64,000 nt of DNA from Octopus vulgaris (lineage: Eukaryota), in assembly GCA_951406725.2 (NCBI GenBank), contig OX597836.1, positions 43,462,001 to 43,526,000 on the forward strand, in the 5' to 3' direction. Position numbers and translations under genes: made by a program. Positions 14,790 through 59,330 of this stretch are shown piece by piece (the stretch's first letter is position 1; every line of letters starts with the position of its first letter). Below the pieces are notes generated by a model. It was not told where the DNA came from. It searched no databases and was given only the letters and a program-made list of their open reading frames with translations.

Positions 14790-15895
14790 AAGTTATTTTA
14801 CTAAATTCTTTGTTATATTTGAAGTAATTGAAAGAAACACAGAGCAGAAACACAGAATAAGTCCTGGGGTAGATTTGCTCGACTAAAGGCGGTGCTCCAG
14901 AATGGCCGCAGTCAAATGACTGAAACGAATAAAAGAGAACTGAGAACTAAGTCATAATGACCTTCTACCTTTGCACTAAATTTATTGCCATCCTCATCGT
15001 TAGCTCTCACCTTGCTGTATACTTCTCTGTACAAGGCTTTTATGGCCTTCACAAGCCATTCATTTGCTCCTAGCTTCCTTAGTGACCACCCGATAACAAC
15101 GGATCAAGAGACCCCGTCAAGAGTTTTCTCTAGGTCAATAAATGCAAAGTCGACTAGCTAAGCACTTCTGCTGTTGTCTCACTAAAAACAGATTATCCAT
15201 AGTACTTTCCTTGGTAAAACTGAAATGCCTTACTTTCATCTACATTAACTCTTTCTTTAATTAAATAAGCCATAAATTTTTATATGACATGCATTATATA
15301 GGCGCAGGAGTGGCTGTGTGGTAAGTAGCTTGCTAACCAACCACATAGTTTCGGGTTCAGTCCCACTGCGTGGCATCTTGGGCAAGTGTCTTCTGCTATA
15401 GCCCCGGGCCGACCAATGCCTTGTGAGTGGATTTGGTAGGCGGAAACTGAAAGAAGCCTGTCGTATATATGTATATATATATAAGTGTGTGTGTATATGT
15501 TTGTCCCCCTAGCATTGCTTGACAACTGATGCTGGTGTGTTTACGTCCCCGTCACTTAGTGGTTCGGCAAAAGAGACCGATAGAATAAGTACTGGGCTTA
15601 CAAAGAATAAGTCCTGGGGTAGATTTGCTTGACTAAAGGCGGTGCTCCAGAATGGCCGCAGTCAAATGACTGAAACAAGTAAAAGATATATATATATATA
15701 TTGGTGATATCATCAATTTTAAAATTTACCCACAGATGATATGAATAGTAAGTAGTGACATCTGATTTCAAATCTCAATGTTTGAATGTTTTGCTTATAA
15801 AATTTTATGCACCATGTGCTCTGTTTTTGGCGCAAAACAAAACCAGTTGCACAGTCAGAGTTTAACGTGACACTTATGGATTATTACCTAGTAGG

Positions 15896-16352: not shown

Positions 16353-16639
16353 TCCTTCTTTCTTTCCTTTCCCGAGCGTCCAATAATACTATAATCGTTC
16401 CATGTCCACACGTTGTTGTGTTTTCTCTTTGTGTATTCATGTTTGGATTAACTATATATATATATACTAGCATTAAAGACCCGTCGTTGCTGGGTCATAG
16501 TGCTAGTGCATGTATATATGTGTACATATTACATGTACATCTATATATATATATATATACATCTACACATAAAATACAAAATACAAAGTTATATCTTGAT
16601 ATCGCTAGTGATAACAATACTCAAAATATATAACAGATT

Positions 16640-16953
16640 GGAATTGTTAGCCCGTCTCTTGTAATTTCGATCAATTGTATCTTGTCCTCCTCTTGTATAG
16701 AAGTGTGGCTACAATCCAGCCTACCTCTACTTCGGGTGGGGGGGTGCATTTAAAATTTTGGGCGGGGACATCCTACGTCCCTGATATAAAGGTAAAAATA
16801 AAATATTTCCACTTTGCAAGTTTGAGTCGAGTACTCCCTTGCACGCTCCGTTGACTTGAACCTTGCTTCTATTGTGGCGAATTTACCGCCTCTGATTAGA
16901 TACTTTTCATAGTCGCACCAAGACACTTTTTGAAGGTGCTTTCCTCCATGTTG
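16640..16953 (-). pseudogene. Decayed fourth ORF1 (ORF1-D), downstream part
   Basis: Fragments NMEESTFKKCLGA / YLIRGGKFATIEARF / PPEVEVGWIVATLL match ORF1-B EIEKCLGD..RGKKFGTVEVR..PPEVKTEWL. Confidence 0.75.
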
Positions 16954-17197
16954 TTTTATTATTACCCACAAGGGGCGAACACAGATGGGACAATACATTC
17001 TGATGATGGGGTCAGACAAACGAATGGGTTTTTACAATAAATCGGGTTTAAAAATTTTCATGAATAACAATAAATGGACAAAAATCGAGTGATAGGACAG
17101 ACCGGAAGACATTACGGGTGGAGTGGGTGCGGGTTTAGCTCGGACCCCACGAGCCCCGCCTCCCCACTGATACTTTTGGTTGCACTTGGTATTACAT

Positions 17198-20100
17198 TTA
17201 TGTTGTAACTTTCATTCGCAACTTCCGTGCTACATCCTTCCATCGTTCTTCATACGCTCTCCTAGTCAGGCATATTCTCTCCAGCCCTATCTTCCTTTTC
17301 AGGTGAAAGATGAAATAATTCATCAAACCAGGGCCGGAGATGAACTTGCCTGACTGTAAACCTTTCATTCTCGTCTTCCATATCACCTCTTTCGCGATTG
17401 CTACTACAACGAGAAAACGAAACTTACCTTCATTCACGAGGAAATCCGGTGGGTCAATTTTTGTAATCGACTCAGTCGACAGCTGTACTCTTCGTGTACC
17501 TGACAACAGGTGTTCGGCATAAACCCACACCTCAGACACGTCCGGACAATGAACAATCGCGTGCGGGACGGTTTCCCTATCCCGCCCGCATCTTGGACAT
17601 ATCGGACTGTCTTGGCCACCGTGCCTTGCGAGTTTATCCCGAACAGGTAGAGCTCCTCTGTAGCATTGCCATGCCAGAGACTTCTGGAAGTTGTCCAGTG
17701 TCCTTGGCTCGAACGTACGTCGGAACAGACTGGCCAGCTGATTATCGTCGAGACCTAGGGTTTCCCCCAAGGTATCTTCACATTCCGCCTCTACCAACCC
17801 TCTATAGAAGAAAGTGGTGGAACCCCCACCGCAGGCGTTGCCCGAGCGACGGAATAGCAGGAGAGCCTTGCGACACTCCGTGTACCAAGTACCAAGTTTC
17901 GATCTACGATTCAGCCAGGTTTCCCATCCACCGAAACTAGTGAACTTGGGAAACATCAGTTTTGCTAGCGAAGACCACACCCGTTCACCATCCAGGTAGA
18001 GCCACAGATGTCTTAACCTCAGCGCATGTCTGCGCATCATCAGCCAAGGCATCCCTAGCCCACCCTTTAACGGTTGTTGACAGCAAGTAGAGCGTTTCAC
18101 AAGTGGTTTCCCGCCCTTCCACAAGAAGTAGAAGAGCTGTCTTTCCAACTTGATCAACCACGAATCAGGGCAAGGAACGACGGAAAGGCGGTAGGTGATA
18201 ACCGATGCGATAAACACATTGGCCACCTCCGCCCTCCCTTTCAGGGATAGCCACCGCCAAGACCAGGTCTTGGCTACTGCAGCCACCTTGCTCGTTACCT
18301 CGCCCCAATTCTTCTCTATTTGGAGGTCTGGACCGAACCAGACCCCTAGCAGTTTAATCGGACCCTCCGTCCAACGTCCCACGACGCTGTCAGGAGGCAT
18401 CGACTTGCCTCTCCAGGTGCCGAGTTGCAAGCCGACTGACTTTTCGCGATTAACTTTTGCTCCTGTCACCGTCTCGTACACCTCTATGGCCTTGCCTACT
18501 TTACATAGGTGGTCCATTTCGGTTACGATGATGGTGATGTCATCCGCGTACGCTGACACTGATTTTCCATTACCTGGCTGTCTCGGGATGCCGCTCAGTT
18601 TTCGCAGTAATGGCTCAAGAGCCATCACGTACAAAAGCGGGGAGAGCGGACACCCTTGACGAACCGAGCGTTTGATTTTGAACGGCTTCGACAAGAAGCC
18701 GTTCACCCGAACTACCGAGTCGATGTTATCATAAATTTCGATAATCCACCTGAGGAATCCAAGGCTCAGCCCGAACTGTGCCAGGGCAGATACCAGGTAA
18801 CGATGGTCGACCCTATCAAAAGCTTTAGATTGGTCTAAATGGACCAGTGCCCCACCCTTGCCAGAATCACTATTAAACCCCTCTATAGTGTACCGCATTA
18901 GATGGAGATTATCCTGAATGGATCTGCCCGGAACGGCACATGTCTGTGCCCCTCCGATCAGACCATCCGCGACACGCGCCAATCTTTTCGATAACACTTT
19001 GGCCAAAATCTTCAACTCTGTGTTTAGCAGAGTGATGGGCCTGAAATTATCAATGCACTCCCCTTGCTCGGGTCCTTTCTGACGAGAGTCACTACTCCCC
19101 GGCGCACAGATCTGGGTATAAGCCCGTTCTGCTGCCAGTTCGCGTAGACCTCCGCCAGTAGGTGCCCGAACAAGTCTGGCATACTCTTATATAACTCATA
19201 GGGTAGACCATCCAAACCCGGCGCCTTGCCCGCGCCGCAGTCCGCCATTGCCTCAACCACCTCCTCAGGCGTGATTGGCCCTTCACAGCCCTCCGCATCT
19301 CGCCCCGATAAGCGCGGCAGACCGTCGAGTAGGTCCGTAAAGGCCCTCCTCCTATCCAGTCCGCCGCACTCACCGAAAAGCTGAGCGAAGTGCTCCTGAA
19401 AGGCCTCACACATCTCCTCGGGTTCGTTTATCAACTCACCTTGTTGGTTCGTCAAAGATCGAATCGTGGCATCGTTACCATGCTGAGCTTCCACCACTCG
19501 GGCCCATCTCACGGCGTTGATTCCTTCACATCCCATATGACGGATTCTAGCCCTGACAATGCAGCCCATGTGTTTGGCCTCGAGGTGCTGGTTTAACACC
19601 AGTCTCTTGGCCGCCACCTGAGCCGCAGAGCCAGTTTTCATGGCTTCCTCTAATTCCTTAACTAGAGTAGTTTCCCTTCTAGCCTCTCTAGCCACTACTC
19701 CTATGCTATATCTAATAGACTCAAACTTGATGGCTCGTTTGAGGGCGTACCACCATTTGTTATTAATGATGGTACCAGATAGTGCCCTCTGAATTATATT
19801 CCTAATCCGGTCTTTGTACTCCTTAATCGCCAAAAGGGACGTATTAAGTTTCCAGTAACCGGATCCTCTATTTTTAACCTTGTCAAGCTTACAAGTGACC
19901 ATTTTATGATCACTGTAGCTGATCGGGTAAAACTGTGGACACTTAGCTATTTTACTGTCTACTTTTCTAATTAGTATTCTATCTAGATACGACCTGGAAG
20001 ATCCGTCGCTGTTTGACCATGTCCACAATGGAGCGTTCGGAAATTCCAGCCTATAAGGATCTGCTAGCTCAAAGCGGCTTAGCAGTTCCATGAAGCCACT

Positions 20101-20586
20101 GTTGCCTTTTCTATCTGGACACGAGCCAACATAATCTACATCCGCTTTGCAAATTGTGTTAAAGTCTCCTAGCACCACTAATGAATGCGAAGTACCAAGA
20201 AAGTTTTCTAGTTCACGAAAATAATCACTTTGCCCTGTATGGTTGGGTGCGTAAATTGCAACCAGTCTGATAACTTTACCATTACTGAACGTCAAATCCA
20301 TGACGACCAGCCTACCTTCTGGATCTGCAAAAATTAACTTTTTCTCAGAAACCCGGTTTCTTTTTAATAGGACCAACACCCCACTCCCGCCTGTAGGACT
20401 GCCAGGAGAGAAAAAACTCTCGTAGCCGTCAAACAGCGGGAGTAGACCTCTTGGCCCCTCTAGCCGGGTTTCTGTAGCAACAATAACATCTAAATTACGC
20501 GACCTGATATCATGCAGGAAGCGACCTTGCTTCCAGCCTGCTCCCAGGCCGCGCACATTTAAACAACCAACATAAATGTAATCCAT
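17198..20586 (-). CDS. ORF2: APE endonuclease / reverse transcriptase / zinc finger (about 1129 aa if one frameshift is corrected)
   Basis: CLNVRGL, ETR, GDFN, SYLDRIL, SDHK (APE); LDQSKAFDRV, RQGCPLSP, YADD (RT); CPRC...HAIVHC. One 1-bp loss in a G run at ~19060-19063; restoring it reads KG-ECIDNFRPITLLNTELKILAK. Confidence 0.92.
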
Positions 20587-20595
20587 TACTTACCT

Positions 20596-21997
20596 TTATA
20601 TCAGTGGTTCGGTTTTTTCTTCTTCTTCCTTCTCTTTTTCTGGGCCTCGTGGGGGAGTCTGACGTAGGCCCTCGAATATATGTGGAGATGTTACATCCAA
20701 CCTAAGTGGGCCTACGTCATGGAAGAAATCTGACTTTATCCGCCCGTAATCCTTCCGGTCTATTTTGTAAATTGCAAAGTCATTTTTTTCTCTACTCTCT
20801 TCACATTGGCCATGGCTGCCAACACGTTTCCGAGTCTGCTATTTGATGCTTTTACGGCCATATATGAGTTTATTGACTCTTTTTTCTTTTTTAAAATTAC
20901 TCTGGGAGGGGTGGTTTCCGTTTTTCTTTTTTTTTTTCCGATAATTTTTGCCCACCCCTCCTCATTTATCTTTTCCTCGCTCTTTTTTTCTCCGCCGCTG
21001 GTTCTGCTGTTACCATCACCTCCACACCTTCAGTCTTCCCTTCTGGGCCGTCTGACGCTGCTTCTGGTGACACATTGTCTTCTTTTCCTTTTGGCTTAGG
21101 TGCTTCCTGCGGTTTGGGTTGGGGCTGGCATTCCGCCCTTACATGCCCCTTCTTACCGCAGCCGAAGCACCTCGGCTTTCTGCCCTCTACGAAGACTGTG
21201 ACTCTTTCATCTTCGCTTATCCTAAGAGTCTCTGGGATCTCTTCCAGGGTTTGTACTTCTGCTTGTATGGCTATTATTATCTTTTGCCCTTTCCAGAATT
21301 CTTCTTCTTCTACGGTGGCCTGGAGGATGTTTATTTTTTCCTCCAGGCCTACCATAACTGCTGCCACTAGGACTTCGGCATCCGCTTCTGGCGGGATGTT
21401 GTTCATAGTGATTTTGGAAGTTCTCTTGCCTTTATACAGGGGTAGGAGAACAATATCCTCTGCTTTTATGGGTTCCATGGATAGCTTCTTCGCTACCTCC
21501 TCTGACGTGAATCTCACCTCCACTGTGCCGTATTTCTTCCCTCGATTGATATACGTAATTTTGTCCATTATTGGCTTTAAGCAGTTTTCAATCTTTTTCT
21601 CCTCTATTTTTTGGATTGCTCTGTTTGTTATACTGAATGTCTTATAGATTATTCTCCTATTCGAAATATCCTCTTGTATTTTGGCGTTTGAAGCCACGGT
21701 TACTTCTGTGCCCTCTTTTGACACACAGTCTGCATGTTTTCCCAGGTTGTCCACGTTAATTTTTTTAATTTTCTTCCCAGCCACTTCAGCGAATTTTTTT
21801 GCTGGAGTTGATGCTGGTACTGGTTTTACCATTTTCTTGGGCGACGCCGCCTCTTTTTTCTTCGGCGACAGCGCCTCTTTTTTCCTTGGCGACAACGCCT
21901 CTTTTTTACTTGGCGACAATGCCTCTTTTTTACTTGGCGACAACGCCGGGTATTCATCCTCGCTCGTCACGGGCGAATAAGTGATGGGGGACTCCAT
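20596..21997 (-). CDS. ORF1-A: RRM-like + CCHC zinc-knuckle RNA-binding protein (about 467 aa after two homopolymer corrections)
   Basis: ATG at 21997 (MESPITY); VEGRKPRCFGCGKKGHVRAEC knuckle; frame resumes after A-run indels (~20985, ~20785) and ends ...KTEPLI* 9 nt before the ORF2 ATG. Confidence 0.85.
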
Positions 21998-22228
21998 TTT
22001 GAACAAATGGCTTTAACAAGCCTTTGGTAATCTAAATTGATTGTAGTTTTCCCCCACTGAGGGGGGAACACCAACGCGAAGTCTTCGCGCGAAGGTTGAC
22101 TTCGTCAGTTAGACAACAATGGACAAAAAAAGGTAGACCAACAGTATATAATAACAGAGATAAGTAGTATGAGAGCAAAAATATATATCAACTTACTACT
22201 AACGCAAAAAATTGATTTCCTCCAGGTG

Positions 22229-24011
22229 ATTTTATTACTACCCACAAGGGGCGAACATAGAGGGGACAATACAATCGGGGAACTTAAAATAAGAAAGCGA
22301 AATGACAAGAAGGGAAAAAATAAAAATAAAAATGACAAATGAAAGAATATTTACAATGAGATGCAAATGCCCACTCGATCCCCGGAATCGAGAGGTTACA
22401 TTTTCGTCACATATAGTTCACAATTTTTTTTTTCTTTTTTCTCTTCTTTCTTCTCTCTCCTCTCACAATCTCACACGTATTCCATAATACTTTTCAAGTC
22501 TCTAAAGTCAATCACTGAGCCCTCAGGCAGCCGCTCTTTCACTCGAACACCCGTGTAAAAAATTACACTCTCTCCAGCTGCTCTGAGGAACTCAGCGACT
22601 CTTTCTTCGGGGATCAGAGCAGTCTCCTGCCACTGATCAGTCATCCTGTTGACCCACACATGTCCCTCCATACTACATGTCAATTCCTTCATTTCGGGGC
22701 TGAAATGGAAGGTTATTAACTTGTAGTAATCTTGTTTCCGTCCTACGTTTTCTCTCGTTTTTCTTTTCGGGCTTACTTCTTCCTTGTTCTCCTCTCTTTG
22801 TTTCTCTCTTTCTCTCTTTTTGCCTTCTTTTCTTTCTTCTTCCTTCTCTTGTCTTTTTGGTTCTTTGTCTGTTCTCTCTTTCTCTCGTGTTTTATGTTCC
22901 TTTTCTTTTTCTTTTTGTGTGCCGTCTTTTCTTTTCGTTTGATTCTGTTCTCTCTCTTGTTTTTTTCCTGTTGTTTCTTTTTCCTTTTTCTTTTCCTGAC
23001 TCTGTTTTGGTTCTATTTCTTTCTTTTCTTTTATTTCTTTTTCCTTCGTTGACTTATTATTTCCTTTCTCTTGTTGTTTTGTCTCCTTTTCTATGTTTTC
23101 TTTTTCATTTACCGTATTCTTCTTTTCTTCAGTTTCCTTCTCATACTCCGCCATGAATTCATATAACGGGCACTCTTTTTTAATGTGCCCCCTTGTCCCG
23201 CACAAGTAGCAGTTTGGCTTTCTTCCCTCTACAATTACACTGAGGGTTTTCTCGTCTTCGATTTCTATTCTATAGGGGAACCTTTCAATGTCCTCTTTTG
23301 TGGCCATCAAACACAGTTCTACCCCATATCCTCTCCAATTTACTGCGTTGGACTCCTTAAAGGATTCCACCTCCACTTCCTCTTCTGCTGCTCCTAGAAT
23401 AGCTGTTGCCAGCCATTCTGTTTTTACTTCTGGGGGTATATTCGGGATTTTAACCCGGACCCCTCTTCTTCCCTTGTATGAGGGCCACATTATAAATGTT
23501 TCCGCTCTTAGAACAGTGGTAGCCAGTGAGGCTGCAATTTCTTCCGTTGCACATCTCACCTCCACCGTACCAAATTTTTTTCCTCTACTCACGTAGGTCG
23601 ATTTATCCATTATGTCTCCCAGACATTTTTCGATCTCTGCTATCTCCACTCTTGCCAGTTTCTTTGTACTTTTGTCCTGGGTTCTATACGTTACAGTTTT
23701 GTTTTCTTTGTCCTCTTTTGCTTTCGCGGGGGGATTAGCTTCACGCTATCACCCTCCCTTTTGAATAGTTTTTCATATTCCTTGAGTTTACTCTTCTCAA
23801 AGAAGACATCCTTCACGATTATTGCCGAATCATTATTATTCTTTCCCGTGACCCCCGCGTAAGTCGCCATGACTAGAGGGTCAATTCACCTTCTTCGGAA
23901 GGTTTCCAAACGTGGAGGCAAATGCCTCGCGCGATATTAATCACTTTACACAACAAAATTTCAACGTCTAATCACAGATAACAACACACGTGGGTAAATT
24001 TCCTCGATGTG
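22229..24011 (-). mobile_element. ORF1-only retroelement unit B1 (ORF 22471-23870)
   Basis: MATYAGVT...CYLCGTRGHIKKEC...; own 5' UTR; 3' tail TTGTCCCCTCTATGTTCGCCCCTTGTGGGTAGTAATAAAAT; no ORF2; frameshift in a G6 run at ~23730. Confidence 0.88.
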
Positions 24012-25790
24012 ATTTTATTACTACCCACAAGGGGCGAACATAGAGGGGACAATACAATCGGGGAACTTAAAATAAGAAAGCGAAATGACAAGAAGGGAAA
24101 AAATAAAAATAAAAATGACAAATGAAAGAATATTTACAATGAGATGCAAATGCCCACTCGATCCCCGGAATCGAGAGGTTACATTTTCGTCACATATAGT
24201 TCACAATTTTTTTTTTCTTTTTTCTCTTCTTTCTTCTCTCTCCTCTCACAATCTCACACGTATTCCATAATACCTTTCAAGTCTCTAAAGTCAATCACTG
24301 AGCCCTCAGGCAGCCGCTCTTTCACTCGAACACCCGTGTAAAAAATTACACTCTCTCCAGCTGCTCTGAGGAACTCAGCGACTCTTTCTTCGGGGATCAG
24401 AGCAGTCTCCTGCCACTGATCAGTCATCCTGTTGACCCACACATGTCCCTCCATACTACATGTCAATTCCTTCATTTCGGGGCTGAAATGGAAGGTTATT
24501 AACTTGTAGTAATCTTGTTTCCGTCCTACGTTTTCTCTCGTTTTTCTTTTCGGGCTTACTTCTTCCTTGTTCTCCTCTCTTTGTTTCTCTCTTTCTCTCT
24601 TTTTGCCTTCTTTTCTTTCTTCTTCCTTCTCTTGTCTTTTTGGTTCTTTGTCTGTTCTCTCTTTCTCTCGTGTTTTATGTTCCTTTTCTTTTTCTTTTTG
24701 TGTGCCGTCTTTTCTTTTCGTTTGGTTCTGTTCTCTCTCTTGTTTTTTTCCTGTTGTTTCTTTTTCCTTTTTCTTTTCCTGACTCTGTTTTGGTTCTATT
24801 TCTTTCTTTTCTTTTATTTCTTTTTCCTTCGTTGACTTATTATTTCCTTTCTCTTGTTGTTTTGTCTCCTTTTCTATGTTTTCTTTTTCATTTACCGTAT
24901 TCTTCTTTTCTTCAATTTCCTTCTCATACTCCGCCATGAATTCATATAACGGGCACTCTTTTTTAATGTGCCCCCTTGTCCCGCACAAGTAGCAGTTTGG
25001 CTTTCTTCCCTCTACAATTACACTGAGGGTTTTCTCGTCTTCGATTTCTATTCTATAGGGGAACCTTTCAATGTCCTCTTTTGTGGCCATCAAACACAGT
25101 TCTACCCCATATCCTCTCCAATTTACTGCGTTGGACTCCTTAAAGGATTCCACCTCCACTTCCTCTTCTGCTGCTCCTAGAATAGCTGTTGCCAGCCATT
25201 CTGTTTTTACTTCTGGGGGTATATTCGGGATTTTAACCCGGACCCCTCTTCTTCCCTTGTATGAGGGCCACATTATAAATGTTTCCGCTCTTAGAACAGT
25301 GGTAGCCAGTGAGGCTGCAATTTCTTCCGTTGCACATCTCACCTCCACCGTACCAAATTTTTTTCCTCTACTCACGTAGGTCGATTTATCCATTATGTCT
25401 CCCAGACATTTTTCGATCTCTGCTATCTCCACTCTTGCCAGTTTCTTTGTACTTTTGTCCTGGGTTCTATACGTTACAGTTTTGTTTTCTTTGTCCTCCT
25501 TTGCTTTCGCGGGGGGATTAGCTTCACGCTATCACCCTCCCTTTTGAATAGCTTTTCATATTCTTTGATTTTACTTTTCTCAAAGAAAACATCCTTCACG
25601 ATTATTGCCGAATCATTATTATTCTTTCCCGTGACCCCCGCGTAAGTCGCCATGACTAGAGGGTCAATTCACCTTCTTCTGAAGGTTTCCAAACGTGGAG
25701 GCAAACGCCTCGCGCGATATTAATCACTTTACACAACAAAATTTCAACTTCTAATCACAGATAACAACACTTGGAGATTTCCTCCATGTG
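24012..25790 (-). mobile_element. ORF1-only unit B2 (ORF 24254-25653)
   Basis: Near-identical tandem copy of B1. Confidence 0.88.
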
Positions 25791-27571
25791 ATTTTATTAC
25801 TACCCACAAGGGGCGAACATAGAGGGGACAATACAATCGGGGAACTTAAAATAAGAAAGCGAAATGACAAGAAGGGAAAAAATAAAAATAAAAATGACAA
25901 ATGAAAGAATATTTACAATGAGATGCAAATGCCCACTCGATCCCCGGAATCGAGAGGTTACATTTTCGTCACATATAGTTCACAATTTTTTTTTTCTTTT
26001 TTTCTTCTTTCTTCTCTCTCCTCTCACAATCTCACACGTATTCCATAATACTTTTCAAGTCTCTAAAGTCAATCACTGAGCCCTCAGGCAGCCGCTCTTT
26101 CACTCGAACACCCGTGTAAAAAATTACACTCTCTCCAGCTGCTCTGAGGAACTCAGCGACTCTTTCTTCGGGGATCAGAGCAGTCTCCTGCCACTGATCA
26201 GTCATCCTGTTGACCCACACATGTCCCTCCATACTACATGTCAATTCCTTCATTTCGGGGCTGAAATGGAAGGTTATTAACTTGTAGTAATCTTGTTTCC
26301 GTCCTACGTTTTCTCTCGTTTTTCTTTTCGGGCTTACTTCTTCCTTGTTCTCCTCTCTTTGTTTCTCTCTTTCTCTCTTTTTGCCTTCTTTTCTTTCTTC
26401 TTCCTTCTCTTGTCTTTTTGGTTCTTTGTCTGTTCTCTCTTTCTCTCGTGTTTTATGTTCCTTTTCTTTTTCTTTTTGTGTGCCGTCTTTTCTTTTCGTT
26501 TGATTCTGTTCTCTCTCTTGTTTTTTTCCTGTTGTTTCTTTTTCCTTTTTCTTTTCCTGACTCTGTTTTGGTTCTATTTCTTTCTTTTCTTTTATTTCTT
26601 TTTCCTTCGTTGACTTATTATTTCCTTTCTCTTGTTGTTTTGTCTCCTTTTCTATGTTTTCTTTTTCATTTACCGTATTCTTCTTTTCTTCAATTTCCTT
26701 CTCATACTCCGCCATGAATTCATATAACGGGCACTCTTTTTTAATGTGCCCCCTTGTCCCGCACAAGTAGCAGTTTGGCTTTCTTCCCTCTACAATTACA
26801 CTGAGGGTTTTCTCGTCTTCGATTTCTATTCTATAGGGGAACCTTTCAATGTCCTCTTTTGTGGCCATCAAACACAGTTCTACCCCATATCCTCTCCAAT
26901 TTACTGCGTTGGACTCCTTAAAGGATTCCACCTCCACTTCCTCTTCTGCTGCTCCTAGAATAGCTGTTGCCAGCCATTCTGTTTTTACTTCTGGGGGTAT
27001 ATTCGGGATTTTAACCCGGACCCCTCTTCTTCCCTTGTATGAGGGCCACATTATAAATGTTTCCGCTCTTAGAACAGTGGTAGCCAGTGAGGCTGCAATT
27101 TCTTCCGTTGCACATCTCACCTCCACCGTACCAAATTTTTTCCTCTACTCACGTAGGTCGATTTATCCATTATGTCTCCCAGACATTTTTCGATCTCTGC
27201 TATCTCCACTCTTGCCAGTTTCTTTGTACTTTTGTCCTGGGTTCTATACGTTACAGTTTTGTTTTCCTTGTCCTCCTTTGCTTTCACGGGGGGGATTAGC
27301 TTCACGCTATCACCCTCCCTTTTGAATAGCTTTTCATATTCTTTGATTTTGCTTTTCTCAAAGAAAACATCCTTCACGATTATTGCTGAATCATTATTAT
27401 TCTTTCCCGTGACCCCCGCGTAAGTCGCCATGACTAGAGGGTCAATTCACCTTCTTCTGAAGGTTTCCAAACGTGGAGGCAAACGCCTCGCGCGATATTA
27501 ATCACTTTACACAACAAAATTTCAACTGTCTAATCACAGATAACAACACGCAAATAGATTTCCTCCAGGTG
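25791..27571 (-). mobile_element. ORF1-only unit B3 (ORF 26032-27431)
   Basis: Near-identical copy. Its G7 run keeps the N-terminus in frame; it has a frameshift in a T run at ~27135 instead. Confidence 0.88.
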
Positions 27572-29345
27572 ATTTTATTACTACCCACAAGGGGCGAACA
27601 TAGAGGGGACAATACAATCGGGGAACTTAAAATAAGAAAGCGAAATGACAAGAAGGGAAAAAATAAAAATAAAAATGACAAATGAAAGAATATTTACAAT
27701 GAGATGCAAATGCCCACTCGATCCCCGGAATCGAGAGGTTACATTTTCGTCACATATAGTTCACAATTTTTTTTTCTTTTTTCTCTTCTTTCTTCTCTCT
27801 CCTCTCACAATCTCACACGTATTCCATAATACCTTTTCAAGTCTCTAAAGTCAATCACTGAGCCCTCAGGCAGCCGCTCTTTCACTCGAACACCCGTGTA
27901 AAAAATTACACTCTCTCCAGCTGCTCTGAGGAACTCAGCGACTCTTTCTTCGGGGATCAGAGCAGTCTCCTGCCACTGATCAGTCATCCTGTTGACCCAC
28001 ACATGTCCCTCCGTACTACATGTCAATTCCTTCATTTCGGGGCTGAAATGGAAGGTTATTAACTTGTAGTAATCTTGTTTCCGTCCTACGTTTTCTCTCG
28101 TTTTTCTTTTCGGGCTTACTTCTTCCTTGTTCTCCTCTCTTTGTTTCTCTCTTTCTCTCTTTTTGCCTTCTTTTCTTTCTCCTTCCTTCTCTTGTCTTTT
28201 TGGTTCTTTGTCTGTTCTCTCTTTCGTGTTTTATGTTCCTTTTCTTTTTCCTTTTGTGTGCCGTCTTTTCTTTTCGTTTGATTCTGATCTCTCTCTTGTT
28301 TTTTTCCTGTTGTTTCTTTTTCCTTTTTCTTTTCCTGACTCTGTTTTGGTTCTATTTCTTTCTTTTCTTTTATTTCTTTTTCCTTCGTTGACTTATTATT
28401 TCCTTTCTCTTGTTGTTTTGTTTCCTTTTCTATGTTTTCTTTTTCATTTACCGTATTCTTCTTTCGAGTTCCTGCTCGCACTCCGCTACGAATTCGTATA
28501 ACGGGCACTCTTTTTTAATGTGCCCCCTTGTCCCGCACAAGTAGCAGTTTGGCTTTCTTCCCTCTACAATTACACTGAGGGTTTTCTCGTCTTCGATTTC
28601 TATTCTATAGGGGAACCTTTCAATGTCCTCTTTTGTGGCCATCAAACACAGTTCTACCCCATATCCTCTCCAATTTACTGCGTTGGACTCCTTAAAGGAT
28701 TCCACCTCCACTTCCTCTTCTGCTGCTCCTAGAATAGCTGTTGCCAGCCATTCTGTTTTTACTTCTGGGGGTATATTCGGGATTTTAACCCGGACCCCTC
28801 TTCTTCCCTTGTATGAGGGCCACATTATAAATGTTTCCGCTCTTAGAACAGTGGTAGCCAGTGAGGCTGCAATTTCTTCCGTTGCACATCTCACCTCCAC
28901 CGTACCAAATTTTTTTCCTCTACTCACGTAGGTCGATTTATCCATTATGTCTCCCAGACATTTTTCGATCTCTGCTATCTCCACTCTTGCCAGTTTCTTT
29001 GTACTTTTATCCTGGGTTCTATACGTTACAGTTTTGTTTTCTTTGTCCTCTTTTGCTTTCGCGGGGGGATTAGCTTCACGCTATCACCCTCCCTTTTGAA
29101 TAGTTTTCATATTCTTTGAGTTTACTCTTCTCAAAGAAAACATCCTTCACGATTATTGCCGAATCATTATTATTCTTTCCCGTGACCCCCGCGTAAGTCG
29201 CCATGACTAGAGGGTCAATTCACCTTCTTCGGAAGGTTTCCAAACGTGGAGGCAAATGCCTCGCGCGATATTAATCACTTTACACAACAAAATTTCAACG
29301 TCTAATCACAGATAACAACACACGTGGGTAAATTTCCTCCATGTG
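27572..29345 (-). mobile_element. ORF1-only unit B4 (ORF 27813-29204, several indels)
   Basis: Copy of B with a locally divergent patch at ~28460-28500 and small indels. Confidence 0.86.
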
Positions 29346-31078
29346 ATTTCTTTATTACCCACTAAGGGGCTACGAAGAATGGCGGACATAACAAAACATG
29401 GGGACATAGAACATTATAATTAAACTTTATGAAAATGAATTGTTAAACGAAAAAAATGATAAAATGAAAGCGATACCAACGGCCCCGTCCGTCAGCATCA
29501 CTTACCTGTCCTTTGTTTTTCATAGTCACTTGAATGTTCTTTGTCAATACGAATAAATTCCATATCCATTCTTACTCCGAAATACTCATCCATATTTTCC
29601 ACGAATTCATCGCTCATTCTTATATCTTTCACCTCCCAATTCTCCCTTTCACACCTCCCCATAAACTCACCTATGTTCTTCTTTTCAATCACAGCATACC
29701 TAGTCTCTCCAACATCATACCATTTATACTCTTCCATTAGACTTTTAACTTCTTTCTGTTCAGTCATAGTACAAATGTACGGCCTGGGTTCGATTTCAAT
29801 CTCTTGTGTGTGTGTATTCTTTTTTTTCTTTTGTTTTCTTGTTGGGGGGGAGCGGGTGGGTTCAATGTCTGCATGGATAGGGTGGGACTCAGAGGGTGTG
29901 GGTGGTTTTGGGGTAGATTGGAGTTCCATATTATTTTCTTTTTTTCCACGTATTCTTCTCTTCCTCTTACTTCCAGCTTCCTTCCATTTCTGTGTATTCT
30001 CTTCCTCTGTTTCCTTCTCCTCTGGTTTCTGCTTCTCTCTCTCTGGTTCGGAATCCATTTCTTTCCCTGGGGGAGGGCAGAAGGCTCTTATGTGACCCCT
30101 CAGGCCACACTTGTAACAACGTGGAGCCCTGCCCTCCACCCACACTCTCATGATCACGTCTCCCAGTCTGATGCTTTCCGTCAGGTCCACCAGTACCTCG
30201 GTCTCTGCCTGTACGTTCAGCTCCACCGTTACGCCTCTCCAGCCCTCGGACTTAACCGAGGCATGGAGAATATCCACTTCGTCCTCGTGGCCGCTGATCA
30301 CAGCCGCCACAATCCATTCTGCCTCCACGTTTGGTGGCACTCCCTCCACCCTTATTCGTGTAATCCTCCTGTTTAAATACGTAGGTAATAGGGTTACCTT
30401 TTCTGACTTCACCGCCTTCGCCGCCATCTTCCTCGCTGCAGACTCAGTTTTGAAATGCACAACTACGGTACCGTACTTGGATCCTCGAGTCAGAAAATTT
30501 ATTTCCTCCTCAGTTCTTCGCAGGGCCTCCTCTATCCATTCCATGGTTACAACTTCTACCCTCTTCCTTTCGTTTGCGAACACCCTGTAAATAATGGTCC
30601 TCTTATCATACCATTCCTTTCTCCTGGGTGTCGGTGATAGTTCCACCTCACCGCTTTCCTTTTTCATGTATTTCTGGTAACTTGGCAACTTGGCCATGTC
30701 TACCCCTTTCTCTTCCGCCTTCTTGGTTACACCGGCATAGGTATAACCCAGCTTCTCTTCCAAATTCCTTGCTGCCATTTCTAGCTCTTTCTCAGACGTA
30801 GGCAGGTCTGATAAAGACTCGAAAATTCCAGCCTTTTCTTCCATCAGCTTCATTGCAATTGCCTGTTCCAGTTCCTCATCTGTCGTGGACAAGTCTGTTA
30901 GAGACTCATAGTCCATTTCCTTCTGTCTGACAGACCGAGAACGGCCGCCAAAATAGAAAAAGTGTAACGCGCTGAACGAGCGAAACGCGAAACCGCATCA
31001 ACGCCGTTCAGAACCTCCACAACAACAACAACGCTTCTTGTTCTTTTTTACCGAATTTCAGGAGCCGAAAAAAAACGT
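29346..31078 (-). mobile_element. ORF1-only unit C1
   Basis: Own 5' UTR; 3' tail GCCCCTTAGTGGGTAATAAAGAAAT; no ORF2. Confidence 0.88.
29498..30916 (-). CDS. ORF1-C (472 aa, intact): RRM-like + CCHC knuckle
   Basis: TYAGVTKK, RGSKYGTVVVHF, LLPTY..R, VPPNV, VEGRAPRCYKCGLRGHIRAFC; motif order collinear with ORF1-A and ORF1-B. Confidence 0.9.
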   Translation of the reverse strand: MDYESLTDLSTTDEELEQAIAMKLMEEKAGIFESLSDLPTSEKELEMAARNLEEKLGYTYAGVTKKAEEKGVDMAKLPSYQKYMKKESGEVELSPTPRRKEWYDKRTIIYRVFANERKRVEVVTMEWIEEALRRTEEEINFLTRGSKYGTVVVHFKTESAARKMAAKAVKSEKVTLLPTYLNRRITRIRVEGVPPNVEAEWIVAAVISGHEDEVDILHASVKSEGWRGVTVELNVQAETEVLVDLTESIRLGDVIMRVWVEGRAPRCYKCGLRGHIRAFCPPPGKEMDSEPEREKQKPEEKETEEENTQKWKEAGSKRKRRIRGKKENNMELQSTPKPPTPSESHPIHADIEPTRSPPTRKQKKKKNTHTQEIEIEPRPYICTMTEQKEVKSLMEEYKWYDVGETRYAVIEKKNIGEFMGRCERENWEVKDIRMSDEFVENMDEYFGVRMDMEFIRIDKEHSSDYEKQRTGK

Positions 31079-32831
31079 ATTTCTTTATTACCCACTAAGG
31101 GGCTACGAAGAGTGCCGGACATCACAAAACATGGGGACATAGAACATTATAATTAAACTATATGAACATGAAGTGTTAAACGAAAAAAATGATAAAATGA
31201 AAGCGATACCAACGGCCCCGTCCGTCAGCATCACTTACCTGTCCTTTGTTTTTCATAGTCACTTGAATGTTCTTTGCCAATACGAATAAATTCCATATCC
31301 ATTCTTACTCCGAAATACTCATTCATATTTTCCACGAATTCATCGCTCATTCTTATATCTTTCACCTCCCAATTCTCCCTTTCACACCTCCCCATAAACT
31401 CACCTATGTTCTTTTTTTCAATCACAGCATACCTAGTCTCTCCAACATCATACCGTTTATACTCTTCCATTAGACTTTTAACTTCCCTCTGTTCAGTCAT
31501 AGTACAAATGTACGGCCTGGGTTCGATTTCAATCTCTTGTGTGTGTGTATTCTTTTTTTCTTTTGTTTTCTTGTTGGGGGGAGCGGGTGGGTTCAATGTC
31601 TGCATGGATAGGGTGGGACTCAGAGGGTGTGGGAGGTTTTGGGGTAGATTGGAGTTCCATATTATTTTCTTTTTTTCCACATATTCTTCTCTTCCTCTTA
31701 CTTCCAGCTTCCTTCCATTTCTGTGTATTCTCTTCCTCTGTTTCCTTCTCCTCTGGTTTCTGCTTCTCTCTCTCTGGTTCGGGATCCATTTCTTTCCCTG
31801 GGGGAGGGCAGAAGGCTCTTATGTGACCCCTCAGGCCACACTTGTAACAACGTGGAGCCCTGCCCTCCACCCACACTCTCATGATCACTTCTCCCAGTCT
31901 GATGCTTTCCGTCAGGTCCACCAGTACCTCGGTCTCTGCCTGTACGTTCAGCTCCACTGTTATGCCTCTCCAGCCCTCGGACTTAACCGAGGCATGGAGA
32001 ATATCCACTTCGTCCTCGTGGCCGCTGATCACAGCCGCCACAATCCATTCTGCCTCCACGTTTGGTGGCACTCCCTCCACCCTTATTCGTGTAATCCTCC
32101 TGTTTAAATACGTAGGTAACAGTGTTACCTTTTCCGACTTCACTGCCTTCGCTGCCATCTTCCTCGCTGCAGATTCACTTTTAAAGTGCACAACTACGGT
32201 CCCGTACTTGGATCCTCGAGTCAGAAAATTTATTTCCTCCTCAGTTCTTCGCAGGGCTTCCTCTATCCATTCCATGGATACAACTTCTACCCTCTTCCTT
32301 TCGTTTGCGCACACCCTGTAAACAATGGTCCTCTTATCATACCATTCTTTTCTCCTGGGTGTCGGTGATAGTTCCACCTCACCGCTTTCCTTTTTCATGT
32401 ATTTCTGGTAACTTGGCAACTTGGCCATGTCGACCCCTTTCTCTTCCGCCTTCTTGGTTACACCGGCATAGGTATAACTCAGCTTGTCTTCCAATTTCCT
32501 TGCTGCCATTTCTAGCTCCTTCTCAGACGTAGGCAAGTCTGATAAAGACTCGAAAACTCCAGCCTTTTCCTCCATCAGCTTCACTGCAATTGCCTGTTCC
32601 AGTTCCTCATCCGTCGTGGACAAGTCTGTTAGAGACTCATAGTCCATTTCCTTCTGTCTGACAGACCGAAAACGGCCGCCAAAACAGAAAAAGTGTAACG
32701 CGCTGAACGAGCGAAACGCGAAACCGCGTCAACGCCGTTCAGAATTTCCACAACAACAACAACGCTTTTTGTTCTTTTTTACCGAATTTTCAGGAGCCGA
32801 GAAAAAAAAACACGGAGCCGAAAAAAAAACG
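31079..32831 (-). mobile_element. ORF1-only unit C2 (ORF 31231-32647, one frameshift near 31570)
   Basis: Diverged copy of C1; its 5' end has a duplicated GTTTTTTTTTC(TC)GGCTCC motif. Confidence 0.88.
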
Positions 32832-32880
32832 ACCTTTTTTCTCTACATTGTATACTTTATAGACAATAGTCTTTTCTTTA
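32832..32880 (-). pseudogene. Decayed ORF1-D, upstream part
   Basis: EKTIVYKVYNVEKKG resembles ORF1-C KRTIIYRVFANERK and ORF1-B NKTVTYRTQDKSTKK, which lie just upstream of the KCLG motif found across the array. Confidence 0.55.
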
Positions 32881-34189
32881 ATTTAATTTTTTATTATCCA
32901 TCTGGACTATTCCATTTCTGCATGCTAATTTTATTTTTAATTTATTCCCATTCATGTGAAACCACTTATTCAAGTTCAAATCATTGATGCAATTTTATAC
33001 CAATTGCTATTTTTACTTTTGTCATGTTACTTTAGTTTGATTTTAATTATTACTTACTACATATAATTCAATTGTTATTATTATTTTTATTGTTAAAGTG
33101 AAAGTATCTGACATAAAATAGGGAAACGTTTTTGTTTCACTTTTAACACGTAATGCTGAAATAGTGGAGAAGATATGATATTGCTATGGACTCGCTCTAG
33201 GCCAGAAGTTGAAAATTTTTTGTTGCCCATGAAACTACATGTGTAAAATTTGAATGAAATTGGTTGTGTAGTTCTCAAGTTTTAGGCAAACACACAGACA
33301 GACAGACACACATTCTCAGTTTTATATATATAAAGATATATCATCATCATTTAACATCCGTTTTCCGTGCTAGCACGGGTTGGATGGTTCAACTGGGGTC
33401 TGGGAAGCCAGGAGGCTGCACCAGGCTCCAGTCTGATCTGGCAGTGGCCACGATCAGTTGGTGCTTTTTACGTGCCACCGGCACAGAAGCCAGTCAAGGC
33501 GGTGCTGGCATCAGCCATGTTCGGATGGTGCTTTTTACATGTCGCCGGCACAGGTATCACAACTACAATTTCCTTTTAATATTTATTTTGATGTTGATGT
33601 ACTTGACTCAATAGGTCTCCTCAAGCACAGCAGGTCGCCCTATGATCCAAGGTAAACACAGCAGGTCGTTCTGCAATCCAAGGTACTTCGGATGGGCTGG
33701 GGCTATGCGAAACTGGTGCAGGAAGCAGCCATGAACTCACATTATTTGTCGGGTCTTTGCAGTCACAGCATATCTCCAGAGATCTCGGTCTTTCGTCATT
33801 GCCTCTGTGAGGCCTAACGTTCAAAGGTCATGCTTGACTACCTCATCCCATGTCTTCCTGGGTCTACCTCTCCTCCGGATACCTTCAACTGTTTGGGAGT
33901 GGCACTTCTTCACACATCTCTCCTTATCCATCTGCAGTACATATGTGTGTGTGTGTGTGGATATGCAATGGCCCAGTGGTTAGGGCAGTGGACTTGCAGT
34001 CATAGGATCGTGGTTTCGATTCCCAGACCGGGCGTTGTGAGTGTTTATTGAGTGAAAACACCTAAAAGCTCCAAAAAGCTCCAGCAGGGGGTGGTGGTGA
34101 TCCCTGCTGTACTTTTTCACCACAACCTTCTCTCACTCTTTCTTCTGATGGTTTGGTTGGTCATGTGATATATATATATATATATATAT

Positions 34190-47205: not shown

Positions 47206-48362
47206 TAAGGCGGCGAGCTGGCAGAAACGTTAGCACGCCGGGCGAAATGCGTTGCCGTATTTCGTCTGCCGTTACATTCCCAGTTCAAATTCCGCCAAGG
47301 TCGACTTTGCCTTTCATCCTTTCGGGGTCGATAAATTAAGTACCAGTTACGCACTGGGGTCGATGTAATCAACTTAATCCCTTTGTCTGTCCTTGTTTGT
47401 CTCCTCTGTGTTTAGCCCCTTGAGGGTAGTAAAGAAATAGGTATTTCGTCTGTCTTTACGTTCCCAGTTCAAATTCCGCCAAGGTCAACTTTGCCTTTCA
47501 TCCTTTCGGGGTCGATAAATTAAGTACCAGTTACGCACTGGGGTCGATGTAATCGACTTAATCCCTTTGTCTGTCCTTGTTTGTCTCCTCTGTGTTTAGC
47601 CCCTTGAGGGTAGTAAAGAAATAGGTATTTCGTCTGTCTTTACGTTCCCAGTTCAAATTCCGCCAAGGTCGACTTTGCCTTTCATCCTTTCGGGGTCGAT
47701 AAATTAAGTACCAGTTACGCACTGGGGTCGATGTAATCGACTTAATCCCTTTGTCTGTCCTTGTTTGTCTCCTCTGTGTTTAGCCCCTTGTGGGTAGTAA
47801 AGAAATACGTATTTCGTCTGCCGTTACATTCTGAGTTCAAATTCCGCCAAGGTCGACTTTGCCTTTCATCCTTTCGGGGTCGATAAATTAAGTACCAGTT
47901 ACGCACTGGGGTCGATGTAATCGACTTAATCCCTTTGTCTGTCCTTGTTTGTCTCCTCTGTGTTTAGCCCCTTGTGGGTAGTAAAGAAATAGGTATTTCG
48001 TCTGCCGTTATGTTCTGAGTTCAAATTCCGCCGAGGTCAACTTTGCCTTTCGTCCTTTCGGGGTCGATAAATTAAGTACCAGTTACGCACTGGGGTCGAT
48101 GTAATCGACTTAATCCCTTTGTCTGTCCTTGTTTGTCTCCTCTGTGTTTAGCCCCTTGTGGGTAGTAAAGAAATAGGTATTTCGTCTGCCGTTACGTTCT
48201 GAGTTCAAATTCCGCCGAGGTCAACTTTGGCTTTTCGTCCTTTCGGGGTCGATAAATTAAGTACCAGTTACGCACTGGGGTCGATGTAATCGACTTAATC
48301 CCTTTGTCTGTCCTTGTTTGTCCCCTCTGTGTTTAGCCCCTTGTGGGTAGTAAAGAAATATG
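47206..48362 (+). mobile_element. Head-to-tail array of six Nin/Deu-domain-like SINE units (184-bp period) with a single TSD
   Basis: GTATTTCGTC at 47257, 47441, 47625, 47809, 47993, 48177; 16-bp TSD TATCTATTTTGTTCTC at 47190-47205 and 48363-48378. Confidence 0.92.
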
Positions 48363-58777: not shown

Positions 58778-59330
58778 CTTATTTCTTTATTGCCCACAAG
58801 GGGCTAAACATAGAGGGGACAAACAAGGAGTGACAAACGGATTAAGTCGATTACATCGACCCCAGTGCATAACTGGTACTTAATTTATCGACCCCGAGAA
58901 GATGAAAGGCAAAGTCGACCTCGGCGGGATTTGAACTCAGGATGTAATGGCTATCGGAATACCTATTTCTTTATTATCCACAAGGGGCTAAATATAGAGG
59001 GGACAAACAAGGACAGACAAACGGATTAAGTCGATTATATCGACCCCAGTGCGTAACTGGTACTTAATTTATCGACCCCGAAAGGATGAAAGGCAAACTC
59101 GACCTCGGCGGGATTTTAACTCAGGACGTAACGGCAGACGAAATACCTATTTCTTTATTATCCACAAGGGGCTAAACATAGAGGGGAGAAACAAGGACAG
59201 ACATAGGTATTAAGTCAATTACATCGACCCCAGTGTGTAACTGGTACTTATTTAATCAACCCCGAAAGGATGCAAAGCAAAGTTGACCTCGGCGGGATTT
59301 GAACTCAGGATGTAAATGCAGACGAAATAT
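58778..59330 (-). mobile_element. Three tandem Nin/Deu-domain-like SINE units; single copies at ~52730 and ~53338
   Basis: Same unit and tail (CCCCTCTATGTTTAGCCCCTTGTGG.TAATAAAGAAATAG) as the 47206 array. Confidence 0.85.

What the first reader, a model, noticed from the sequence alone, without database searches (positions are those of the whole stretch)
22229..22275. LINE/ORF1-unit 3' tail matches the tail of the Nin-domain-like SINE: candidate SINE-Tx1 partnership
Seen: the unit B tail is TTGTCCCCTCTATGTTCGCCCCTTGTGGGTAGTAA. The SINE tail (e.g. 48318-48360, 53340-53385, 58780-58825) is TTGTCCCCTCT[A/G]TGTTTAGCCCCTTGTGGGTAGTAAAGAAAT. Unit C ends GGGTAATAAAGAAAT like the SINE, and unit A shares an upstream CGTTTGTCTG. 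The core CCC-CTTGT-GGG can form a stem-loop. Known: shared 3' tails mark stringent LINE/SINE pairs (CR1, L2, RTE), whereas L1-like RTs are usually poly(A)-relaxed. Inference: this RT mobilises three classes of template (itself, ORF1-only units, a SINE) through one hairpin.
Basis: partly seen in the sequence, partly recalled or inferred. Interest (0 to 1): 0.75.

Follow-up and report, generated by a model that had tools for sequence, protein, structure and literature searches.

The report
Tx1 tail shared by SINE, half-LINEs
In a likely octopus genome, one short 3'-end sequence is shared by many Tx1-type retrotransposons, their half-length ORF1-only relatives and a SINE with over 80,000 copies, so these passengers likely borrow Tx1 enzymes, although the site-specific LINE in this window likely moves only the ORF1-only units and not the SINE.

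Summary
The window holds a 16-kb head-to-tail array (one Tx1-type LINE, four B and two C ORF1-only units) stacked at one site of a ~1-kb Helitron-like element. LINE A and unit B are site-specific genome-wide. The poly(A)-less tail is common to a radiation of Tx1-type families and several old ORF1-only lineages; B and C are under purifying selection (dN/dS 0.10-0.19 between subfamilies). The sampled CR1 and RTE tails are unrelated. The SINE (at least 81,605 exact tails) has Tx1-length target duplications (11-21 bp), but its hairpin word never precedes LINE A's exact target word (0 versus 90 for A/B). Its closest tail (53-54 of 58 nt) belongs to an older ORF1-only family, D. So the SINE/Tx1 partnership holds at clade level, not for this LINE; a relaxed-target sister family is the likelier driver. 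The hairpin is only modestly supported and the 'Nin-domain' label is unsupported. New variant of known SINE/LINE, HAL1 and crocodilian Tx1-Mar/SINEU systems; my seven literature searches found no tail-sharing animal SINE/Tx1 pair (Repbase not searchable).

The parts
22228..22275 (-). 3' tail of ORF1-only unit B (the finding): pyrimidine tract, CCC-TTGT-GGG hairpin, AATAAA, no poly(A)
16952..22215 (-). LINE A, Tx1-type non-LTR retrotransposon (about 5.26 kb); young site-specific subfamily, 49 exact-tail copies
20966..22012 (-). LINE A ORF1 (348 aa stop to stop), weak CCHC knuckle
17198..20589 (-). LINE A ORF2: APE endonuclease, RT, zf-RVT; split over two frames in this copy (19024-20589 and 17198-19186)
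16952..17020 (-). LINE A 3' tail
16940..16951 (-). target word ACATGGAGGAAA after LINE A; variants recur at the junctions 22216-22227, 23999-24010, about 25778-25789, 27559-27570 and 29333-29344 (duplicated target)
22228..29332 (-). four ORF1-only B units, about 1.78 kb each, 98.2-99.4% identical, three different 5' junctions; ORF up to 424 aa with CCHC knuckle
29345..32826 (-). two ORF1-only C units, about 1.73 kb each, 97% identical; tail and 5' end resemble family E
32830..33336 (-). 5' part of the host ~1-kb non-autonomous Helitron-like element (starts A|TC)
16467..16951 (-). 3' part of the same host (subterminal hairpin, then CTAG|T)
47209..48361 (+). SINE: one head plus six 184-bp units, each ending in the shared tail, flanked by a ~20-bp TSD
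53338..53572 (-). SINE monomer (about 232 bp) with a ~17-19-bp TSD
52731..52965 (-). SINE monomer with a ~15-18-bp TSD
58780..59330 (-). three headless tandem SINE units

Best explanation
The ~45-60-nt tail is shared by a radiation of Tx1-type retrotransposons, several ORF1-only lineages and a very abundant SINE in this genome, and it likely is the RNA signal by which Tx1 ORF2 proteins pick their templates. Shown: LINE A and ORF1-only unit B sit almost only at one site of a non-autonomous Helitron-like element, in arrays separated by a ~12-bp target word. Inferred: A-clade ORF2 nicks that site and reverse-transcribes its own RNA and B RNA; repeated insertion (with some later array duplication) builds the arrays, and B supplies its own ORF1p. 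Unit C likely uses a sister family (E-type tail and 5' end) that also reaches this host. The SINE likely took its tail from the older D lineage (or D's unseen LINE) by template switching. It is likely moved by relaxed-target sisters whose tails also end AAAGAAAT (family E is the best present candidate), not by LINE A, and likely primes by 3-7 nt of pairing at the nick. Inferred: this self-priming would also produce its 184-bp tandem arrays.
For: Tail shared and non-random. Hairpin-type tail in families A, A2-A5, E, G, H, which fall in one 28-row clade of a quick tree. LINE A: 20 of 30 loci run into the Helitron 3' part, 7 into the next A/B unit, 1 carries the word only, 2 other. B: 99 exact copies; of 30 loci 21 carry the site-1 word, 2 the site-2 word, 6 run into the next A/B unit, 1 other. 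Empty host sites exist: 20 empty, 4 deletion variant, 6 filled of 30. ORF1 dN/dS is 0.10-0.14 between B subfamilies and 0.19 between C subfamilies; B and C form deep clades apart from LINE ORF1s. SINE: 81,605 exact tails; TSD 11-21 bp in 20 of 34 headed terminal copies against 8 of 1122 swapped controls; 0 at A's word against 90 for A/B. Family D tail matches SINE tails at 53-54 of 58 columns. Family E has 17 distinct 3' flanks among 21 tails, mostly unrelated. 25 of 54 terminal SINE copies continue AGGTA or ATATA, often also present in the upstream target copy. CR1 and RTE ends are unrelated.
Against: No ORF2-bearing element with the exact SINE/D tail was found (0 hits), so the direct partner is not identified. 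RNAalifold found no consensus structure on 27 tails. The named structure has only one pair with two-sided change, and covariation was reached by 20 of 500 shuffles; single-tail energies are weak (-3 to -11.5 kcal/mol). Dong/R4, L2, Hero, R2 and Penelope ends were not compared with the SINE tail. 14 of 34 headed SINE copies gave no TSD. A shared tail could be descent plus a shared 3'-processing signal (AATAAA). One C pair (recently split) gave dN/dS 0.41. No mobilisation assay was run.
Confidence: 0.72

Rival explanations
1. One reading: LINE A's own RT mobilises itself, the ORF1-only units and the SINE through one hairpin.
For: The tail is shared; B uses A's site; SINE TSD lengths are Tx1-like.
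Against: SINE hairpin word at A's exact target word: 0 genome-wide against 90 for A/B. LINE A is site-specific, rare (49 exact tails) and young (median 99.5% identity), whereas SINE bodies average 89.4%. Other families match the SINE tail better.
Confidence: 0.12
2. The tail is a 3'-processing signal (AATAAA plus hairpin) kept by descent; the SINE captured it once but is moved by another clade (CR1, RTE, Dong/R4) without tail recognition.
For: AATAAA-like hexamer in nearly all tails; weak structure support; Tx1 families look too rare to explain 81,605 copies easily; CR1 and RTE dominate the RT hits.
Against: Elements end 5-6 nt after AATAAA with no poly(A), directly at the TSD. A Pol III SINE would not need a Pol II poly(A) signal (inference). 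The SINE has no (TAT)n or (GATA)n end like the CR1 and RTE copies seen and has Tx1-length TSDs.
Confidence: 0.1
3. The shared 'tail' is target DNA: the LINE and its units insert into SINE tails, so the match is a target-site remnant.
For: Tx1 elements target other repeats (Kojima 2015, PMC4494074), and the tail repeats at every array junction.
Against: The empty host has no tail; the duplicated word is the Helitron's ACATGGAGGAAA. The tail differs by family and follows the ORF2 tree. No SINE body flanks the array.
Confidence: 0.03
4. The arrays arise mainly by DNA-level duplication (unequal crossing-over, or transport inside the Helitron), so B and C are not independently mobile.
For: A 22-unit B array on contig C7; two window B copies share one 5' junction; spacer variants repeat within arrays.
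Against: The window's four B copies have three different 5' junctions and spacer words. B, C and A each abut the host alone at other loci. LINE A copies are 99.5% alike while their hosts are 87-95% alike to the window's host. ORF1 is under purifying selection.
Confidence: 0.08

Closest known systems
Crocodilian Tx1-Mar and SINEU (Kojima 2015, PMC4494074; parts 2-3 of 5 read)
   Same: Tx1 families that insert into a non-autonomous DNA transposon, form tandem copies around a TSD and trans-mobilise a SINE; sister families target microsatellites and other transposons.
   Different: SINEU has snRNA heads and poly(A), shares the LINE's target, and (SINEU-1) has no 3' similarity to any LINE. Here the SINE shares the 3' tail, has no poly(A) and does not share LINE A's target; the host is Helitron-like; ORF1-only passengers join the arrays.
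Stringent SINE/LINE pairs (L2, CR1, RTE; L1-clade only maize ZmSINE2/3 and Chlamydomonas SINEX-3) (Ohshima 2013, PMC3747384, passages and Table 1)
   Same: SINE and LINE share a 40-60-nt 3' end with a putative stem-loop.
   Different: No Tx1 and no animal L1-clade pair among the 58 listed; bivalve SINE partners are CR1, CR1-Zenon, L2 and Nimb (PMC11481361, passages). Here the tail is shared by a whole Tx1-type radiation and its closest holder is an ORF1-only element.
HAL1, HeT-A, Ag-Sponge (ORF1-only non-autonomous LINEs) (Kojima 2018, PMC5786205, passages)
   Same: Encode only ORF1p and depend on a LINE ORF2. HeT-A forms mixed head-to-tail arrays with its autonomous partners (recalled).
   Different: Derived from a Tx1-type lineage; at least three independent lineages (B, C, D); site-specific in interstitial repeats, not telomeres; no poly(A). 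That paper argues such elements cannot be a source of SINEs, whereas here family D holds the tail closest to the SINE's.
Kibi/Koshi and Xenopus Tx1L (named in PMC4494074; Tx1L targeting a DNA transposon is recalled)
   Same: Target-specific APE retrotransposons; a sister family here targets (TC)n in 29 of 30 loci like Kibi.
   Different: Helitron and Penelope-like targets, and many targets among near-identical ORF2s.

Membership tests
Tx1 clade non-LTR retrotransposon | ORF2 with L1-type APE endonuclease, RT and C-terminal zinc motif | tested here: met
   Pfam Exo_endo_phos, RVT_1, zf-RVT; all 9 PDB matches are L1 EN/ORF2
Tx1 clade non-LTR retrotransposon | ORF1 with CCHC zinc knuckle | tested here: met
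   zf-CCHC over cut-off in B and family E, below cut-off in A and C; motif visible in the translations
Tx1 clade non-LTR retrotransposon | Target-specific insertion with TSD | tested here: met
   28 of 30 LINE A loci at one word or array; TSDs of 13-26 bp in about 18 of 40 relatives, judged by eye
Tx1 clade non-LTR retrotransposon | RT phylogeny groups with named Tx1 elements (Tx1L, Keno, Kibi) rather than L1 | not testable with these tools
   No named Tx1 reference was returned; the nearest named hits are Argonauta hians (57%) and Sepia pharaonis proteins
Stringent SINE/LINE pair | SINE 3' end homologous to LINE 3' end | tested here: met
Stringent SINE/LINE pair | Conserved 3' stem-loop with compensatory change | tested here: inconclusive
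   86% of cells paired against 43-54% for slid controls, one pair with two-sided change; RNAalifold found none; different stems fold at the same place in single tails
Stringent SINE/LINE pair | Same insertion signature as the partner LINE | tested here: inconclusive
   TSD length matches the clade; the target does not match LINE A; family E targets are varied like the SINE's
Stringent SINE/LINE pair | Tail-dependent trans-mobilisation | not testable with these tools
   needs a reporter assay
ORF1-only non-autonomous LINE (HAL1/HeT-A/Ag-Sponge type) | ORF1 homolog, no ORF2, LINE-type 3' end | tested here: met
ORF1-only non-autonomous LINE (HAL1/HeT-A/Ag-Sponge type) | Multi-copy independent lineage with ORF1 under selection | tested here: met
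   99 exact B tails; dN/dS 0.10-0.19 between subfamilies; own clades
Nin-DC/Deu-domain SINE | Central domain homologous to Nin-DC | tested here: inconclusive
   One 20-nt word of the Lottia Nin domain (PMC4758252 supplement) is absent from the window at 3 mismatches, and no likeness is seen by eye. No full alignment was made, so the result leans against but is weak
tRNA-derived SINE | tRNA-like head with A and B boxes | tested here: inconclusive
   A-box- and B-box-like words seen by eye (box consensus recalled); ARAGORN and Rfam find no tRNA
Non-autonomous Helitron (host) | 5' TC, 3' hairpin then CTAG, inserted between A and T without TSD | tested here: met
   seen in most of 30 loci; criteria recalled
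Non-autonomous Helitron (host) | Autonomous RepHel partner with the same ends | not tested
   no search run

The most novel reading that the evidence does not exclude
These poly(A)-less Tx1 elements choose their target partly with RNA: transcripts run a few bases past the tail into the duplicated target word and pair with the nicked strand, so each lineage homes to its own flank. This would explain why A-clade subfamilies with 88-91% identical endonucleases and an identical WTWSNSDGSSRSY hairpin loop use different sites, why variant spacer words travel with B across chromosomes, why mixed LINE/ORF1-only arrays grow like HeT-A/TART arrays inside transposons, and why the SINE inserts into its own body. 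It would be a naturally retargetable, RNA-steered APE retrotransposon shared by LINEs, half-LINEs and a SINE. Against it: other endonuclease loops vary with the target, as expected for protein-coded specificity.
Probability: 0.2. Interest if true: 0.8.

Novelty: new variant of a known kind. Interest (0 to 1): 0.58.

Why it matters
L1/Tx1-clade enzymes are thought mostly to take any poly(A) RNA. Ohshima 2013 lists only three L1-tail SINEs, none in animals and none Tx1. A poly(A)-less, tail-sharing Tx1 radiation that carries a SINE with over 80,000 copies and several ancient ORF1-only lineages supports stringent recognition inside this clade and points to the driver of a major cephalopod SINE. 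Near-identical ORF2s with different targets make a natural series for separating endonuclease-coded from RNA-aided target choice, a question left open for APE elements (PMC1950540, abstract) and relevant to site-specific gene insertion tools.

Tried and rejected
Patterns meant to find a LINE with the exact SINE tail gave 0 hits, as did a first SINE-at-target pattern with a wrong spacer. The TC-targeting family (L112) was tested as partner and rejected: different hairpin, (TC)n target in 29 of 30 loci. The top CR1 and RTE families were rejected; that search returned only these clades, so Dong/R4, L2, Hero, R2 and Penelope remain unchecked. RNAalifold gave no consensus fold. No covariance model was built; alignment scores and genome BLAST were used instead. 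The careful ORF2 tree did not finish, so the quick tree is used. ARAGORN and Rfam found nothing in the SINE head. Sequencing runs: no RNA holder listed on record; the four runs laid were contigs and say nothing on transcript ends. Supplement searches for the SINE's central domain found nothing; SINEBase supplements, one file each of PMC4758252 and PMC4824008, and the FASTA of PMC11481361 could not be read and may bear on the SINE's identity. Earlier scan findings: none. One search was a script error, rerun.

Full report
Setting. The window is G000:C23:43462001-43526000 of a 2.8-Gb assembly. The nearest named relatives of the LINE's ORF2 are from Argonauta hians (57% identity) and Sepia pharaonis, so I infer an octopod; I cite the genome only as G000.

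The observation. The quoted B tail is at 22228-22275 on the minus strand. An 18-nt tail pattern hits 18 places in the window against 0.01 expected: seven array units and eleven SINE tails. Against three window SINE tails, local alignment scores are 55-60 for B, 41-51 for LINE A and 39-44 for C; shuffles average about 14, and CR1 and RTE ends score 10 and 13.

The array. On the minus strand run C1, C2, four B units and LINE A. LINE A has ORF1 and an EN-RT-zf-RVT ORF2 that is split over two frames in this copy; its endonuclease matches only L1-type structures. B and C carry only an ORF1 homolog. None has poly(A). A 12-nt word, ACATGGAGGAAA or a variant, follows C2, each B and A. Both flanks belong to one ~1-kb repeat with Helitron-type ends (A|TC, subterminal hairpin, CTAG|T; criteria recalled). 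Of 30 copies found with its 5' part, 20 are empty at this word, 4 are a deletion variant and 6 are filled. The word is therefore target DNA and the tail is not. Searches that did not include the flank show site specificity. LINE A has 49 exact tails; of the 30 fetched, 20 run into the host's 3' part, 7 into the next unit, 1 has the word only and 2 are other. B has 99 exact tails, including 22 in tandem on C7; of the 30 fetched, 21 carry the site-1 word, 2 a second host site, 6 run into the next A or B unit through a variant word and 1 is other. A C-type tail precedes the word at 17 places (that pattern included the word, so it does not measure specificity). The window's four B copies are 98.2-99.4% alike but have three different 5' junctions, which favours repeated insertion, with duplication probably adding to long arrays.

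The ORF1-only units are old lineages, not fresh deletions. B and C ORF1s form two long-branch clades apart from all LINE ORF1s among 44 rows. dN/dS is 0.10-0.14 between B subfamilies (dS up to 1.5) and 0.19 between C subfamilies; one recently split C pair gave 0.41. Yet their tails track the LINEs: B resembles the A clade, and C resembles family E in tail and 5' end.

The tail marks a radiation. A zf-RVT scan gave 150 scored hits; I examined the 30 returned loci and 40 fetched 10-kb stretches chosen mostly for long open frames, four of which overlap returned loci. A CCCC-T(T/A)GT-GGG tail ends families A, its subfamilies, E, G and H, which lie in a 28-row clade of a quick, unfinished tree. More distant families keep the pyrimidine tract and AATAAAGA end but have other stems (ACC/GGT, GATT/AATC). 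Targets differ by family: the Helitron-like host, a Mariner-like repeat, Penelope-like repeats (both labels from recalled features), (TC)n in 29 of 30 loci for the L112 family and (TTA)n for L114. About 18 of the 40 stretches gave a plausible TSD of 13-26 bp (judged by eye). Family E is relaxed: 17 distinct flanks among 21 tails.

Structure. On a 27-row alignment a nine-pair interrupted hairpin that I named has 86% of cells paired against 43-54% when slid, and one pair with two-sided change; covariation was reached by 20 of 500 shuffles. RNAalifold found no consensus, partly because MAFFT misregisters the divergent stems. Single tails fold at -3 to -11.5 kcal/mol. The hairpin is plausible, not shown.

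The SINE. It is about 230 bp, with 81,605 exact 30-nt tails genome-wide and bodies averaging 89.4% pairwise identity. In 70 loci from the start of contig C1, 115 distinct tails were seen: 55 run into the SINE's own position ~58 (184-bp tandem units), 6 into position ~15, 34 are terminal with a head and 20 terminal without. 20 of the 34 have TSDs of 11-21 bp; swapped flanks gave 8 of 1122. 25 of the 54 terminal copies continue AGGTA or ATATA, and the same letters often stand in the upstream target copy, which suggests priming by short pairing (inference). The SINE hairpin word followed by LINE A's exact target word has 0 hits; the same pattern with the A/B letters has 90. LINE A is also far younger (99.5%) and rarer than the SINE. 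So LINE A is unlikely to be its driver.

Best tail donor. A pattern for the LINE-type upstream block gave 178 hits, of which 50 were read. One, L372 (G000:C3:177741159-177741819), is a decayed ORF1-only element whose tail matches SINE tails at 53-54 of 58 columns, score 84-89. Its relatives (family D, 67-82% alike) carry the same tail type and form a third ORF1 clade, also in arrays. No ORF2-bearing copy with this exact tail was found. Among ORF2-bearing families the best scores are A2 (62-67) and older E copies (55-65), both ending AAAGAAAT like the SINE. The top RT hits of the genome, CR1 and RTE, end in unrelated sequence. Other clades were not sampled.

Mechanism. Shown: shared tail, site-specific arrays, conserved ORF1-only lineages, Tx1-length SINE TSDs, SINE absent from A's exact word. 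Inferred: Tx1 ORF2 recognises the tail; A-clade ORF2 moves A and B; an E-type ORF2 moves C; the SINE gained a D-type tail by template switch and rides relaxed sisters. On target choice the evidence is mixed. A-clade endonucleases (88-91% identical) share the hairpin-loop sequence yet use different sites, but three other loops vary with the target. Variant spacer words recur with B on different contigs, which hints at RNA-borne flanks. Confidence in the main reading is 0.72; in the RNA-steering reading, 0.2.

SINE label. One 20-nt word of the Lottia Nin domain printed in the supplement of PMC4758252 is absent from the window at 3 mismatches, and the rows look unlike the SINE body by eye. No full alignment was made. 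The central domain remains unassigned, and the element may be one of the octopus SINEs of Ohshima and Okada 1994, which I could not read.

Literature. Searches. Read: PMC4494074 (parts 2-3 of 5), PMC3747384 (passages, Table 1), PMC5786205 (passages), PMC4758252 (passages, supplement hits), PMC4824008 (passages), PMC11481361 (passages), PMC13282606 (part 1 of 3, passages, three supplement rows), PMC3531059 (passages), PMC1950540 (abstract, outline). Tx1 elements that target DNA transposons, form tandem arrays and mobilise a SINE are known (crocodilian Tx1-Mar/SINEU), as are ORF1-only LINEs (HAL1, HeT-A, Ag-Sponge) and L1-tail SINEs in maize and Chlamydomonas. In these searches I found no tail-sharing SINE/Tx1 pair in animals, no Tx1-derived ORF1-only family and no Tx1 targeting a Helitron. 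Repbase and subscription journals were not searchable.

Verdict. A real feature and a new variant of known systems. Interest 0.58.

Noticed in passing
G000:C7:100088831-100131592: 22 consecutive B units at 1.78-kb spacing ending in a LINE A copy: a ~43-kb array at one target.
   Followed up: no
L178-L207 (L112 family): Tx1-type family inserted into (TC)n in 29 of 30 loci, Kibi-like; an older subfamily (L271 and others) mostly lies outside TC runs.
   Followed up: partly
L096-L099, L118, L125: Tx1-type families inserted at fixed sites in Penelope-like repeats (label from recalled features); tail stem GATT/AATC.
   Followed up: partly
L124:3' flank; L070, L075, L102: Several Tx1-type families insert into one repeat that appears to hold a Mariner transposase fragment (read by eye), paralleling crocodilian Tx1-Mar.
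   Followed up: partly
L114: Divergent family, sister to an Argonauta hians protein, followed by a long (TTA)n run.
   Followed up: no
L284, L292, L370, L378: Further old ORF1-only families with the same upstream tail block but different hairpins.
   Followed up: partly
L377:1440-1720 (-): SINE-headed element with an inserted segment and a Tx1-type tail bearing a different hairpin; possibly a second SINE family.
   Followed up: no
L165:1050-1530: SINE copy interrupted by a ~250-bp palindromic, MITE-like insert.
   Followed up: no
window 47209-48361, 58780-59330: SINE tandem arrays of headless 184-bp units; 55 of 115 sampled tails run into the SINE's own position ~58.
   Followed up: partly
window 15300-15690: A second, different SINE-like repeat (CORE-like by recall) without the Tx1 tail.
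   Followed up: no
window 34710-34750 (+): Possible short coding exon after a splice-acceptor-like site, so the array may lie in an intron.
   Followed up: no
window 39483-44256 and 49567-51040: Long minisatellites (31/52/21-bp and 31-bp periods).
   Followed up: no
alignment: Endonuclease loops after YAPN, after NVRGL and before DRKGN vary with target site among otherwise ~90% identical A-clade subfamilies.
   Followed up: partly
P0008, P0151: Two close homologs of this ORF2 are labelled Herbaspirillum sp. on 1.8-kb contigs, probably host contamination.
   Followed up: no
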